This document shows, piece by piece, positions 50,419-52,356 of a stretch of 64,000 bases of DNA. The DNA is from Escherichia phage mogra. Below the pieces are notes generated by a model, which was not told the DNA's origin, searched no databases, and saw only the letters and a program-made list of their open reading frames with translations. The stretch lies in sequence record MN850579.1; one strand, 5' to 3'. A program made the translations under genes and the position numbers. Every line of letters starts with the position of its first letter. The stretch's first letter is position 1.

Positions 50419-50961
50419 ATGAGAAAAGCACTACTCGCTGGTCTATTTGCTCTTTCGTTATCAGCACATAGCTCCGAGCATACTTTTAGTAATGTCCAAC
50501 TCGATAACTTGAATTATGCTTATCAGTTTGGGGAACAGTTTTCTAAGGATGGAAAATTTAAAACGCATGAAAATATGCATAAGAAAGGACTTGGATACAT
50601 AATGGCCGCAATACTATGGCAAGAATCATCTGCCGGTATTAATCTTAAAGATAAGAAAGGTCACCATGCGTATGGAATGTTCCAAAACTATCTACCAACA
50701 ATGAGGGCAAGAATTAACCAGCTTGGGTATAATATGACTGATGCCCAAATTAAGAAAATGCTATCTAAGCGGTCTAATTCAACCAGATGGGCTTATATCG
50801 AATTTTCTTATTGGTTAAATATACATAACGGGGATATAAGAAAAGCTATATCCTCATATAATGCTGGATGGAAGACAAGTGCTGGAAGTAAATATGCTTC
50901 TGAAGTCCTAGAAAAGGCTAATTACCTTAAATCAAATAAACTACTGGAAATAAAAGAATGA
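50419..50961 (+). CDS. Secreted soluble lytic transglycosylase (SLT domain)
   Basis: 180 aa; signal peptide MRKALLAGLFALSLSAHS; SLT motifs E-S (WQESSAG), GMFQ, SYNAG. Confidence 0.7.
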   Translation: MRKALLAGLFALSLSAHSSEHTFSNVQLDNLNYAYQFGEQFSKDGKFKTHENMHKKGLGYIMAAILWQESSAGINLKDKKGHHAYGMFQNYLPTMRARINQLGYNMTDAQIKKMLSKRSNSTRWAYIEFSYWLNIHNGDIRKAISSYNAGWKTSAGSKYASEVLEKANYLKSNKLLEIKE

Positions 50962-51305
50962 CCAAAATGTTGGCTTTAATAGTTGGCTTGGTTTCATTTA
51001 ACGCTCTTGCTAATACTACATATACTGATGTAACGGAGTATACAAACAGAACGGCGTCTGATTATTGTGGTAAAAGTCAAGAGTGTAAAGTAGATTTTTC
51101 ACAAAAATTGTTATACGCTTATAAAGACGGAGAAAAAGATGGGGCGTCTAGTAGGTTCAAGGCGTCTACCTTAATTAAAAGATACTATAAAAAATGGCAA
51201 ATATTAGAATGCTCGGTGGCGGAACCTAAAGATAAGGCAGCATGCAATTCTATGGTGGACCGTCTAGTTGACTCTTATAATAGAGGACTTGCAGCAAGTG
51301 ATTAA
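50958..51305 (+). CDS. Secreted hypothetical protein
   Basis: 115 aa; signal peptide MTKMLALIVGLVSFNALA; four Cys. Confidence 0.6.
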   Translation: MTKMLALIVGLVSFNALANTTYTDVTEYTNRTASDYCGKSQECKVDFSQKLLYAYKDGEKDGASSRFKASTLIKRYYKKWQILECSVAEPKDKAACNSMVDRLVDSYNRGLAASD

Positions 51306-51765
51306 AAACTATATCAAGGGCGATATTGTCGCCCTGTTTTCTAAAGGTAATAATATTGCTCATGGGTGTAATTGTTTTCATACAATGGGCGCTGGTGTGG
51401 CAGGGCAATTAGCAAAGGCTTATCCAAAAATTCTGGAAGCCGATAAACTTCAAACCGAATTCGGAGACAAGTCTAAACTCGGGACTTATTCGGTTTATGA
51501 AAAATATTTTAAGACCCATAAAGCTTATTGCTTTAATCTTTATACACAGTTTGAGCCGGGACCTAATTTTGAGTACTCTGCTTTAATGAATTGTATAATA
51601 GAATTAAATAAATTCGGAAAGAATAAGATAACAAAGCCTGTAATTTATATGCCAAGAATTGGTGCAGGTATTGGTGGTGGAAACTGGGATGTCATCGAAG
51701 AGATTTTAGATACGTATTCCACTAAACTAGAAATTGTGATTGTTGATTGGGAACCGTTATTATGA
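51298..51765 (+). CDS. Macro-domain protein (ADP-ribose binding / hydrolase fold)
   Basis: GTG start overlapping upstream stop (no in-frame ATG); GDIVALFSKGNNIAHGCNCFHTMGAGVAGQ and IGAGIGGGNWDVI resemble macro glycine loops. Confidence 0.55.
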   Translation: MIKNYIKGDIVALFSKGNNIAHGCNCFHTMGAGVAGQLAKAYPKILEADKLQTEFGDKSKLGTYSVYEKYFKTHKAYCFNLYTQFEPGPNFEYSALMNCIIELNKFGKNKITKPVIYMPRIGAGIGGGNWDVIEEILDTYSTKLEIVIVDWEPLL

Positions 51766-51974
51766 ATATACATTATCCACATCCATATGATCCAAAGAAT
51801 AAGGCAGTAATTATTCGTCAATGGGAACGCATTTGTCGTACCAAATGTCCAATTAATAGTCCACATGATGTAGATAAAGACTACATCGGAACATTCGTTG
51901 AATATACCTTTATTGATAAGAAAGGCCGTAAACAACATGTAGAAGAATATTGCTTAAAGGTGACATGGCTATGA
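51762..51974 (+). CDS. Hypothetical protein
   Basis: 70 aa; ATGA overlap. Confidence 0.5.
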   Translation: MNIHYPHPYDPKNKAVIIRQWERICRTKCPINSPHDVDKDYIGTFVEYTFIDKKGRKQHVEEYCLKVTWL

Positions 51975-52177
51975 GTCAAACAAAAATTCTTACAGGTGCT
52001 AAATGCGAAAAATGCGAATGGCCTGTAGTTTTTGCTTTATGCAATGACGAAATGGCTTGTGATTTTGATTATTGGTGTTACTGTTCGAACAAAGGTTGTA
52101 GCAATCATAAAGGTGAAGGGTTTTACTCAGGATTTTACCCTTACCCAGATTTCGTTAAAGAAGGTGAACCTAAATGA
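51965..52177 (+). CDS. Cys-rich small protein
   Basis: 70 aa; CEKCEW...CNDEMACDFDYWCYCSNKGC, eight Cys. Confidence 0.5.
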   Translation: MAMSQTKILTGAKCEKCEWPVVFALCNDEMACDFDYWCYCSNKGCSNHKGEGFYSGFYPYPDFVKEGEPK

Positions 52178-52356
52178 AATTAACTAAAGAAGAGAAAGCT
52201 AAACTGTTCGAACTTATCCATGACCTATTGGATGAGCAAGCAGCCACCAATGCGTATGATGAATATGCTCCTTTGACGGACGAAGAATATCAAGCATTGT
52301 TGGAATCATTTGACAGGAAAGAACAAGAACTCATTGACTACGTGAATTCACTATAA
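52174..52356 (+). CDS. Hypothetical small acidic protein
   Basis: 60 aa, ATGA overlap. Confidence 0.5.
   Translation: MKLTKEEKAKLFELIHDLLDEQAATNAYDEYAPLTDEEYQALLESFDRKEQELIDYVNSL

What the first reader, a model, noticed from the sequence alone, without database searches (positions are those of the whole stretch)
51298..51765. Macro-domain protein with a GTG start in the vs/tk region
Seen in sequence: GDIVALFSKGNNIAHGCNCFHTMGAGVAGQ and a second glycine loop IGAGIGGGNWDVI resemble the two ADP-ribose-binding loops of macro domains. There is no in-frame ATG, so GTG at 51298, overlapping the upstream stop, is the likely start. Established knowledge: T-even phages ADP-ribosylate host proteins (Alt, ModA, ModB), and macro domains reverse ADP-ribosylation or cleave ADP-ribose-derived signals. 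Inference: it could regulate phage-driven ADP-ribosylation or counter host ADP-ribose-based defences.
Basis: inference. Interest (0 to 1): 0.6.

Follow-up and report, generated by a model that had tools for sequence, protein, structure and literature searches.

The report
T4 Tk.4/AdfM macrodomain ortholog, GTG start

Summary
Window 51298..51765 (+) encodes a 155-aa protein with both quoted glycine loops. It passes Pfam Macro, and its AlphaFold2 model (pLDDT 95.6) hits only macrodomains in the PDB: TARG1, Poa1p, DarG, BT1257 and SCO6735. The GTG start is correct. T4 has ATG at the same position with a stop just upstream, 30 of 34 related loci use ATG there, and RB69's record uses the same GTG.

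The window is a Mosigvirus (RB69-like T-even phage), and the gene is the syntenic ortholog of T4 tk.4 (84% identity, dN/dS 0.07). T4 tk.4 has long been annotated "A1pp phosphatase motif". A November 2025 preprint showed that deleting it sensitises T4 to DarTG2 and renamed it adfM.

One detail I did not find in the papers I read. The catalytic lysine of DarG and TARG1 is replaced here by a glutamine. That glutamine is invariant in the window protein and its 120 best database homologs. SCO6735 has the same arrangement, needs that Gln, and cleaves thymidine-linked ADP-ribose from DNA. PhiKZ "AdfM" is a separate, DarG-like lineage.

The enzymatic mechanism is inferred, not shown for this protein. 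Novelty: already known. Interest: low.

The parts
51298..51765 (+). Coding sequence of the Tk.4/AdfM ortholog: a 155-aa stand-alone macrodomain with GTG start and TGA stop
   Evidence: sequence. Pfam Macro 28.8 bits. AF2 pLDDT 95.6 with macrodomain hits; 84% identity to T4 Tk.4; 150/155 identical to RB69 Tk.4, which also starts with GTG.
51282..51287 (+). Shine-Dalgarno-like AGAGGA inside the end of vs; 11 nt separate the GAGG from the GTG
   Evidence: Read directly from the sequence. T4 has the same CGAGGA arrangement upstream of its ATG. Function is inferred.
51298..51305 (+). 8-nt overlap GTGATTAA: macro start codon plus vs stop codon, consistent with translational coupling
   Evidence: RB69 has the same 8-nt overlap. 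Coupling is inferred.
51361..51396 (+). ADP-ribose-binding loop 1, residues H22-G33 (HGCNCFHTMGAG). N25 aligns with DarG N22 and PhiKZ AdfM N23; H22 and N25 align with SCO6735 H24 and N27.
   Evidence: Among the window protein plus its 120 best homologs, H22 is kept in 118, N25 in 119 and G33 in all 121.
51547..51549 (+). Codon for Gln84 (in NLYTQ), the position of the catalytic Lys of TARG1 (K84) and DarG (K80) and of Gln85 in SCO6735
   Evidence: invariant in 121/121. PMC9411070 reports that SCO6735 Q85A is inactive.
51652..51687 (+). ADP-ribose-binding (diphosphate) loop 2, residues P119-W130 (PRIGAGIGGGNW). Gly126 occupies the position of TARG1 Asp125.
51762..51765 (+). ATGA overlap between the macro stop codon and the start of tk.3 (DUF7202)
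51317..51335 (+). Terminator-like RNA hairpin (AGGGCGAT-ATT-GTCGCCCT followed by GTTTTCT) inside codons 7-13. Whether it belongs functionally to the gene is unknown.
   Evidence: pattern scan.: -13 kcal/mol, identical stem in T4, kept in the 44%-identical L027 with a T.G to T.A change; one record annotates it as a terminator.

Best explanation
The ORF is the Mosigvirus (RB69-group) ortholog of phage T4 gene tk.4, recently renamed adfM. It encodes a stand-alone macrodomain of the ALC1/TARG1-like class and sits in the regB-vs.1-vs-tk.4-tk.3-tk.2-tk.1-tk gene run, where the overlapping stop and start codons suggest translational coupling to vs and tk.3.

Its most likely job is counter-defence. 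The host DarTG2 toxin DarT2 ADP-ribosylates thymidines in single-stranded phage DNA (TNTC motifs) and blocks replication. The phage macrodomain binds the ADP-ribose through its two glycine-rich loops and hydrolyses the thymidine-ADP-ribose bond, acting as an orphan antitoxin.

The chemistry is probably SCO6735-like rather than DarG-like. The position of the DarG/TARG1 catalytic lysine holds an invariant glutamine (Q84), which in SCO6735 positions the distal ribose for attack by an activated water.

What is shown here: the ORF, the start codon, the fold, orthology, synteny, purifying selection and the residue pattern. What is shown elsewhere, for T4 only and in a preprint: the gene is required to resist DarTG2. 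[quoted passage not shown]
For: Identity and orthology. The protein is 84% identical over all 155 residues to T4 Tk.4 and 150/155 identical to RB69 Tk.4. It occupies the same position directly after vs in T4, RB69 and the window. dN/dS against T4 is 0.07.

Fold. Pfam Macro scores above the gathering cut-off. The AF2 model has pLDDT 95.6 and pTM 0.91. Foldseek PDB hits are TARG1 (1.4e-10), Poa1p, T. aquaticus and M. tuberculosis DarG macrodomains, BT1257 and SCO6735, all at probability 1.00. The only PADLOC and NCBIfam hits are DarG, over the macro part only.

Function of the ortholog. In a T4 transposon screen, tk.4 was the single significant hit on a DarTG2 host, and a clean knockout sensitised T4 to DarTG2 (10.1101/2025.11.20.689424). 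T4 lacking adfA and adfN had already been found to stay DarTG2-resistant, which predicted a further factor (PMC11825919).

Mechanism by analogy. Q84 is invariant in 121/121 sequences and aligns with SCO6735 Q85, TARG1 K84 and DarG K80. SCO6735 cleaves thymidine-linked ADP-ribose on DNA and rescues DarT toxicity, and its Q85A mutant is dead (PMC9411070). A different phage macrodomain, PhiKZ gp104, removes DarT2-made ADP-ribose from DNA in vitro (PMC13309987).

Expression. Tk.4 protein was detected in the T2 infection proteome (10.64898/2026.06.19.733364).
Against: No biochemical assay has been reported for T4 Tk.4 or for any Mosigvirus ortholog in the papers I could search. The T4 authors say only that enzymatic removal 'seems likely'.

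The genetic evidence is a preprint, on T4, with one DarTG2 system under special conditions (M9 glucose, 30 C).

The window protein lacks three features: the DarG/TARG1 catalytic Lys, the SCO6735 Lys34 equivalent (Ala32), and the long Lys-rich mobile loop that SCO6735 is proposed to use for DNA binding. However, TARG1 and PhiKZ AdfM also have Ala at the Lys34 position.

I could not find whether RB69-group phages resist DarTG2; the LeRoux 2022 paper is not held.
Confidence: 0.75

Rival explanations
1. Non-catalytic or only partly catalytic neutralisation. The macrodomain blocks DarT2 by binding the toxin or its ADP-ribosylated DNA product, rather than by hydrolysis.
For: Catalytically dead SCO6735 (Q85A), DarG (K80A) and TARG1 (K84A) all still inhibit DarT in vitro, with SCO6735 the strongest (PMC9411070). 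The phage factors AdfA and AdfB act by blocking DarT, not by hydrolysis (PMC11825919; PMC11481870). The window protein lacks a catalytic Lys.
Against: Every residue that lines the ADP-ribose site is under strict conservation, including N25 and Q84 (121/121 for Q84). That pattern is what an enzyme would show. The protein has no counterpart of DarG's C-terminal DarT-binding domain, being 155 aa of macro domain only.
Confidence: 0.1
2. A small-molecule ADP-ribose derivative enzyme. Candidates are a Poa1p-like ADP-ribose-1''-phosphate phosphatase, an O-acetyl-ADP-ribose deacetylase, or a degrader of ADPr-based immune signals. On this view the DarTG2 phenotype is secondary.
For: RefSeq and PHROG call the family 'phosphatase' (A1pp motif). 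Poa1p is among the best sequence and fold matches, and its H23 aligns with the nearly invariant H22. [quoted passage not shown]
Against: The annotation is homology-derived and untested. The position matching Poa1p S30 is variable in the family (T 75, L 12, V 9, S 6 ...). In the T4 screen tk.4 was dispensable on plain K-12 and was the single hit on DarTG2, which points to DNA-linked ADP-ribose as the relevant substrate.
Confidence: 0.1
3. An eraser or regulator of the phage's own ADP-ribosylation (Alt, ModA, ModB marks on host RNA polymerase, S1, EF-Tu, or ModB RNAylation).
For: There is only circumstantial support: T-even phages encode three ADP-ribosyltransferases (PMC8120803) and also this macrodomain.
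Against: From established knowledge rather than anything tested here: Alt, ModA and ModB modify arginine, and Arg-ADPr is reversed by DraG/ARH-type enzymes, not by known macrodomains. Nothing I retrieved links tk.4 to Alt/Mod targets. Homologs are also found in Klebsiella, Salmonella, Pseudomonas, Vibrio and Acinetobacter phage records, including rV5-like and Felixounavirus phages outside the T-even group; I did not check whether those phages encode Alt/Mod genes.
Confidence: 0.05

Closest known systems
Phage T4 Tk.4 (NP_049723), renamed AdfM, 'anti-DarT factor Macrodomain' (bioRxiv 10.1101/2025.11.20.689424); also RB69 Tk.4 (NP_861803)
   Same: Same length of 155 aa. 84% identical to T4 and 97% identical to RB69. 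Same position directly downstream of vs. Same conserved loops and Q84. RB69 uses the same GTG start.
   Different: T4 uses ATG with a 4-nt overlap with vs, whereas the window and RB69 use GTG with an 8-nt overlap. There are 25 substitutions against T4, including S32 to A and K127 to G in the two binding loops. The anti-DarTG2 phenotype was tested only in T4.
Streptomyces coelicolor SCO6735 (PDB 5E3B) and Bacteroides BT1257 (PDB 2FG1/2AFC): ALC1-like macrodomains with Gln at the catalytic position
   Same: BT1257 is the best PDB sequence match to the family profile (E=1e-17) and SCO6735 scores 9e-14. They share the H-x-C-N, N-x-x-x-Q and PRIG-x-G-x-[AG]-GG-x-W motifs. SCO6735 hydrolyses thymidine-linked ADP-ribose on DNA and protects against DarT (PMC9411070).
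   Different: Only about 25-28% identity. The window protein lacks SCO6735 Lys34 (it has Ala32) and the 5-residue-longer mobile loop carrying Lys89 and Lys93. It has Gly23 where SCO6735 has Val25. It is a phage gene rather than a chromosomal DNA-damage-inducible gene.
DarG antitoxin macrodomain of DarTG2 (T. aquaticus 5M31/5M3E, M. tuberculosis 5M3I)
   Same: Same fold (Foldseek E about 2e-8 to 5e-8, TM about 0.74). Same presumed substrate, DarT2-modified thymidine. The conserved Asn of loop 1 is shared.
   Different: About 20% identity. Catalytic Lys80 is replaced by Gln84. There is no C-terminal DarT-binding domain and no adjacent darT gene. The NCBIfam DarG equivalog scores 31 bits against a cut-off of 250.
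PhiKZ gp104 'AdfM' (chimallivirus DarG2-like antitoxin, PMC13309987)
   Same: It is a phage stand-alone macrodomain that counters DarTG2, and it carries the same name.
   Different: It belongs to a different lineage. PhiKZ gp104 matches M. tuberculosis DarG at E=9e-25 and keeps the FPTK lysine. Against the window protein it gives only a 23-residue local BLAST match. This suggests two independent recruitments of macrodomains against DarT2. PhiKZ gp104 has in vitro proof of activity; Tk.4 does not.
Human TARG1/OARD1 (PDB 4J5R) and yeast Poa1p (PDB 6LFQ)
   Same: They are the top Foldseek hits and share the same ALC1-like macrodomain class.
   Different: The TARG1 Lys84/Asp125 dyad is Gln84/Gly126 here. 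The Poa1p Ser30 position is not conserved in the phage family.

Membership tests
Macro domain superfamily (Pfam PF01661) | Sequence match to the family model above the curated threshold | tested here: met
   28.8 bits against a gathering cut-off of 22, E=1.3e-6, covering profile positions 2-117 of 118.
Macro domain superfamily (Pfam PF01661) | Three-layer alpha/beta/alpha fold with a central mixed beta-sheet | tested here: met
   The AF2 model has pLDDT 95.6 and pTM 0.91, with 6 strands and 5 helices. The 50 best listed Foldseek PDB hits are macrodomains or designed enzymes built on a macrodomain scaffold, at probability 1.00.
Macro domain superfamily (Pfam PF01661) | Two glycine-rich ADP-ribose-binding loops (GxG after strand 2; G-x-G-x-x-G diphosphate loop) | tested here: met
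   MGAG at residues 30-33 and IGAGIGGG at residues 121-128. G33, G122 and G124 are invariant or nearly so in the family and are shared with TARG1, DarG and SCO6735.
Macro domain superfamily (Pfam PF01661) | Binds ADP-ribose | not testable with these tools
   Needs ITC, a thermal-shift assay or a co-crystal structure.
T-even Tk.4 / AdfM orthologous group | Full-length high identity to T4 Tk.4 | tested here: met
   130/155 identical (84%), no gaps, E=3e-104. 150/155 identical to RB69 Tk.4.
T-even Tk.4 / AdfM orthologous group | Conserved position directly downstream of vs, upstream of the small tk.x genes and tk | tested here: met
   Window order is vs.1-vs-macro-DUF7202-Zn-binding-60 aa-tk. T4 and RB69 have the same order.
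T-even Tk.4 / AdfM orthologous group | Required for growth on DarTG2-expressing hosts | not testable with these tools
   Shown only for T4, in a preprint. Needs a deletion mutant of this phage.
DarG antitoxin (NCBIfam NF048014 equivalog; PADLOC DarG) | Score above the equivalog cut-off and two-domain architecture (macro plus C-terminal DarT-binding domain) | tested here: not met
   31.3 bits against a cut-off of 250. The match covers only profile positions 4-146 of 338, and the protein is 155 aa.
DarG antitoxin (NCBIfam NF048014 equivalog; PADLOC DarG) | Catalytic lysine (T. aquaticus K80, in the FPTK motif) | tested here: not met
   That position aligns with Gln84 (NLYTQ), which is invariant in 121/121 family members.
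DarG antitoxin (NCBIfam NF048014 equivalog; PADLOC DarG) | Encoded next to a darT toxin gene | tested here: not met
   The neighbours are vs and tk.3 (DUF7202). No ADP-ribosyltransferase gene lies in the neighbouring ORFs, going by record annotation (regB to rI) and Pfam scans of the four nearest ORFs.
SCO6735/BT1257-type Gln macrodomains (ALC1-like class) | Glutamine at the TARG1-K84/DarG-K80 position, plus the H-x-C-N loop | tested here: met
   Q84, H22 and N25 align with SCO6735 Q85, H24 and N27. The chain-to-native numbering offset was checked.
SCO6735/BT1257-type Gln macrodomains (ALC1-like class) | Lys34 and the extended Lys-rich mobile loop (Lys89/Lys93) proposed for DNA binding | tested here: not met
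   Ala32 sits at the Lys34 position. The loop after Q84 is FEPGPNFEY, five residues shorter and without Lys.
TARG1/OARD1 | Lys84/Asp125 catalytic dyad | tested here: not met
   The corresponding residues here are Gln84 and Gly126.
Poa1p-like ADP-ribose-1''-phosphate phosphatase | Residues probed by mutation in the Poa1p crystal structures (His23, Ser30) are conserved | tested here: inconclusive
   H22 is conserved in 118/121. The Ser30-equivalent position 29 is Thr here but variable in the family (T/L/V/S/Q/A). Activity cannot be tested here.

The most novel reading that the evidence does not exclude
Tk.4-type AdfM may be a mechanistically distinct, independently recruited anti-DarT2 enzyme. 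On this reading it is a lysine-free, Gln-dependent macrodomain, like SCO6735 but without that protein's DNA-binding lysines. Its substrate range might extend beyond dT-ADPr DNA, for example to RNA-linked or other base-linked ADP-ribose made by further defence systems. Its dose might be set post-transcriptionally by the weak GTG start, translational coupling to vs, and a conserved terminator-like hairpin in codons 7-13 that could also be the Hfq/sRNA contact reported for T2 tk.4 mRNA.
Probability: 0.2. Interest if true: 0.5.

Novelty: already known. Interest (0 to 1): 0.15.

Why it matters
The gene adds one more RB69-group copy to a counter-defence gene that is already annotated in hundreds of T-even genomes and was functionally assigned in T4 in 2025, so finding it in this window changes little.

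Three by-products may be useful.

- The GTG start causes some public records to truncate the gene to Met30, which would delete the catalytic loop. Annotation pipelines should anchor on the T4 and RB69 start.
- The family carries Gln, not Lys, at the catalytic position. Assays and inactive-mutant designs should therefore copy SCO6735 (Q85A), not DarG (K80A).
- The name AdfM now covers two unrelated macrodomain lineages, T4 Tk.4 and PhiKZ gp104. This implies convergent recruitment against DarT2 and could confuse transfer of annotation.

Tried and rejected
- **DarG membership.** The only PADLOC and NCBIfam hit is DarG, but I rejected membership. The score is far below the cut-off, there is no second domain, no catalytic Lys and no darT neighbour.
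- **'Phosphatase' as a function.** The label derives from the A1pp motif only, and the Poa1p Ser30 position is not conserved.
- **Upstream TTG starts at 51268 and 51289.** Rejected because orthologs have in-frame stops there.
- **Met30 as the start, as annotated in MH243438.** Rejected because it removes conserved residues 1-29, including H22 and N25.
- **Equating the window protein with PhiKZ AdfM.** Rejected; BLAST finds only a 23-residue local match.
- **LeRoux et al. 2022 (10.1038/s41564-022-01153-5).** I wanted to learn whether RB69 resists DarTG2, but the paper is not held.
- **Promoter scan.** It gave no more sites than shuffled sequence (10 found against 12.7 expected), so no promoter claim is made.
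- **hmmalign register.** hmmalign placed the PhiKZ FPTK motif two columns out of register. I relied on MAFFT alignment A2 for that protein.
- **Searches not run.** I did not run the large representative-protein search or a second structure job, because the answer was already clear.

Full report
**Observation**

Window 51298..51765 (+) is 468 nt long. It begins with GTG, ends with TGA, and translates to a 155-aa protein that contains both quoted motifs exactly. The GTG overlaps the stop of the upstream 115-aa ORF (GTGATTAA). The TGA overlaps the ATG of the next ORF (ATGA).

There are ATG codons at codons 30, 97 and 118, but none upstream of the conserved N-terminus. The mechanical ORF list starts the frame at a TTG at 51268, so the start codon had to be settled by comparison with orthologs.

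**Start codon**

- T4 tk.4 has ATG at the homologous codon with an in-frame TAG immediately upstream.
- In 34 IMG/VR loci whose match begins at residue 1, 30 have ATG and 4 have GTG at this codon. All read M-I-x-x.
- Two loci that are 97% identical to the window have TAG one codon upstream of the GTG, which excludes the TTGs.
- RB69 Tk.4 (NP_861803) starts with the same GTGATTAAAAAC and is 150/155 identical. APCEc01 (RefSeq) and mobillu annotate the same 468-nt CDS.
- An AGAGGA lies inside the end of vs, with 11 nt between its GAGG and the GTG, as in T4.
- One record (MH243438) instead starts the CDS at Met30 and labels the intervening hairpin a terminator. That call would delete strand 1 and the H-G-C-N-C loop.

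**What the window is**

The 1.5 kb around the ORF is 99.5% identical to Escherichia phage vB_Eco_F27 and about 99% identical to many other records. The three of these I opened (mobillu, APCEc01 and NBG1) are classified as Mosigvirus. Several records already label the gene 'macro domain protein', 'phosphatase' or 'Poa1p_like'.

The gene order in the window is regB, vs.1 (weak SLT match), vs, this ORF, DUF7202 (tk.3), a phage zinc-binding domain protein (tk.2), a 60-aa ORF (tk.1), then tk. T4 has the same order and names the gene tk.4, 'phosphatase; contains A1pp phosphatase motif'. The window protein is 84% identical to T4 Tk.4 without gaps. dN/dS is 0.07 at dS 1.29, so the gene is under strong purifying selection.

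**Fold**

Pfam Macro scores 28.8 bits against a gathering cut-off of 22, and PHROG 335 gives E=1.6e-66.

Sequence matches to solved structures, single sequence then family profile:

| Structure | Single sequence E | Family profile E |
|---|---|---|
| BT1257 | 1.4e-10 | 1e-17 |
| Poa1p | about 1e-8 | 4e-13 |
| TARG1 | 1e-3 | 6e-16 |
| SCO6735 | 8e-5 | 9e-14 |
| DarG | 2e-3 | 2e-12 |

An AlphaFold2 model built from a 53-sequence alignment has mean pLDDT 95.6 and pTM 0.91. Its Foldseek PDB hits are TARG1 (1.4e-10), Poa1p, T. aquaticus and M. tuberculosis DarG, BT1257, SCO6735 and then viral macrodomains, all at probability 1.00.

**Distribution**

tblastn finds relatives in 2798 phage records. 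Hosts include Escherichia, Klebsiella, Salmonella, Pseudomonas, Vibrio and Acinetobacter, and the phages include rV5-like and Felixounavirus types. The protein database returns 391 clusters.

**Function in the literature**

A November 2025 preprint (10.1101/2025.11.20.689424) ran a T4 transposon library on a DarTG2-expressing host. It found tk.4 as the single significant hit and showed that a clean knockout sensitises T4 to DarTG2. The authors renamed the gene adfM and stated that enzymatic removal of ADP-ribose from DNA 'seems likely'.

This fits an earlier prediction. T4 lacking adfA and adfN stays DarTG2-resistant, so it must encode a further factor (PMC11825919).

Independently, PhiKZ gp104, also named AdfM, was shown in vitro to remove DarT2-made ADP-ribose from a TNTC oligonucleotide and to rescue DarT2 toxicity (PMC13309987).

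Tk.4 protein was detected in T2-infected cells, and its mRNA was captured on Hfq with ArcZ and other sRNAs (10.64898/2026.06.19.733364).

**Mechanistic detail from the alignments**

The catalytic lysine of TARG1 (K84) and DarG (K80, motif FPTK) aligns with Gln84 (NLYTQ) of the window protein. That Gln is invariant in the window protein and all 120 listed homologs. TARG1 Asp125 corresponds to Gly126.

The same Gln occurs in BT1257 and in SCO6735 (Q85). I checked the chain-to-native numbering from the 5E3B sequence. For SCO6735, PMC9411070 reports three relevant results: it cleaves thymidine-linked ADP-ribose on DNA, it rescues DarT toxicity, and Q85A or Q85E abolishes activity. The authors propose a mechanism using an activated water.

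The window protein also shares H22 and N25 with SCO6735 H24 and N27, and the PRIG-x-G-x-x-GG-x-W loop. It lacks SCO6735 Lys34 (Ala32 here, as in TARG1 and PhiKZ AdfM) and the longer Lys-rich mobile loop.

PhiKZ AdfM, by contrast, is DarG-like. It matches M. tuberculosis DarG at E=9e-25 and keeps FPTK, while showing only a 23-residue local match to the window protein. The two 'AdfM' proteins are therefore different macrodomain lineages, which suggests convergent recruitment. I did not find this point in the papers I read. It is my inference from the alignments.

**Best explanation and rivals**

The most likely function is an orphan-antitoxin-like hydrolase that removes DarT2-made ADP-ribose from thymidines in phage single-stranded DNA, using Gln84-assisted chemistry (confidence about 0.75).

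- **Inhibition of DarT2 by binding rather than hydrolysis (about 0.1).** Inactive SCO6735, DarG and TARG1 still inhibit DarT in vitro.
- **A small-molecule ADPr enzyme of the Poa1p or MacroD kind (about 0.1).** The 'phosphatase' label is untested, and the Poa1p Ser30 position is variable in this family.
- **Erasing the phage's own Alt/Mod marks (about 0.05).** Nothing supports this. Arg-ADPr is not a known macrodomain substrate; that statement rests on established knowledge, not on a test here.

**Comparison and novelty**

The gene is a member of the Tk.4/AdfM orthologous group, as tested by identity and synteny. It is not a DarG, because four defining features were tested and not met. It is not TARG1, because it lacks the catalytic dyad.

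It resembles SCO6735/BT1257 in catalytic residues but not in the DNA-binding loop. Because the gene is annotated at about 99% identity in GenBank, and its T4 ortholog has an assigned function, the finding is already known.

**Side observation: a hairpin in codons 7-13**

A terminator-like hairpin (51317-51335, -13 kcal/mol, followed by GTTTTCT) sits in codons 7-13. Its stem is identical in T4 even though synonymous sites are near saturation (dS 1.29). It is kept in a 44%-identical relative (L027) with a T.G to T.A change, but it is absent from relatives at 50-60% identity. Whether it attenuates transcription after vs, or is the Hfq contact seen in T2, is untested.

Noticed in passing
window 51317-51335 (+), tail to 51345: A terminator-like hairpin, AGGGCGAT-ATT-GTCGCCCT followed by GTTTTCT (-13 kcal/mol), lies inside codons 7-13 of the macro ORF. 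Its stem is identical in T4 despite dS 1.29. It is kept in the 44%-identical L027 with a T.G to T.A change and is absent in relatives at 50-60% identity. MH243438 annotates it as a terminator. T2 tk.4 mRNA was caught on Hfq with ArcZ (10.64898/2026.06.19.733364), and a hairpin plus U-tract is a typical Hfq site. Any link between the two is untested.
   Followed up: partly
window 50958-51305 (+) (vs) and 50419-50961 (+) (vs.1): The 'valyl-tRNA synthetase modifier' Vs begins MTKMLALIVGLVSFNALA/N, which looks like a Sec signal peptide and is odd for a protein said to act on a cytoplasmic synthetase. The upstream vs.1 product also has a signal-like N-terminus and a weak SLT transglycosylase match (19.4 bits, below the cut-off of 21.3). 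The HIDEN-SEQ preprint reports vs as the most depleted T4 gene in minimal medium.
   Followed up: no
L027 (IMGVR_UViG_2974573495_000001), locus 1501-1950: A 44%-identical homolog reads NLYTKF. It has Lys where the window protein and its 120 best database homologs have Gln84, so it is a natural revertant to the TARG1/DarG-type residue.
   Followed up: no
PhiKZ gp104 (PMC13309987) versus window 51298-51765 / T4 tk.4: There is a name collision. 'AdfM' was given independently to T4 Tk.4 and to PhiKZ gp104, which are different macrodomain lineages (Gln-type versus DarG-like Lys-type) sharing only a 23-residue local BLAST match.
   Followed up: yes
Public records MH243438 (L052 686-1066), MN850622 (L001), NC_000866 (L003); T2 preprint 10.64898/2026.06.19.733364: Several annotation errors surround this locus. 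MH243438 truncates tk.4 to Met30. MN850622 calls tk.3 'putative ABC transporter ATP-binding protein' and labels several unrelated small ORFs 'endoribonuclease'. T4 RefSeq calls mobD.4 a 'molybdopterin-guanine dinucleotide biosynthesis protein'. The T2 RIL-seq preprint describes tk.4 as 'putative thymidine kinase'.
   Followed up: partly
L053 (RB69 NC_004928 56000-64000) versus window 51762-52356: RB69 has only one small ORF (annotated tk.2) between tk.4 and tk. The window and T4 carry three: tk.3/DUF7202, tk.2/zinc-binding, and tk.1. The small-gene cassette downstream of the macrodomain is therefore variable within Mosigvirus.
   Followed up: no
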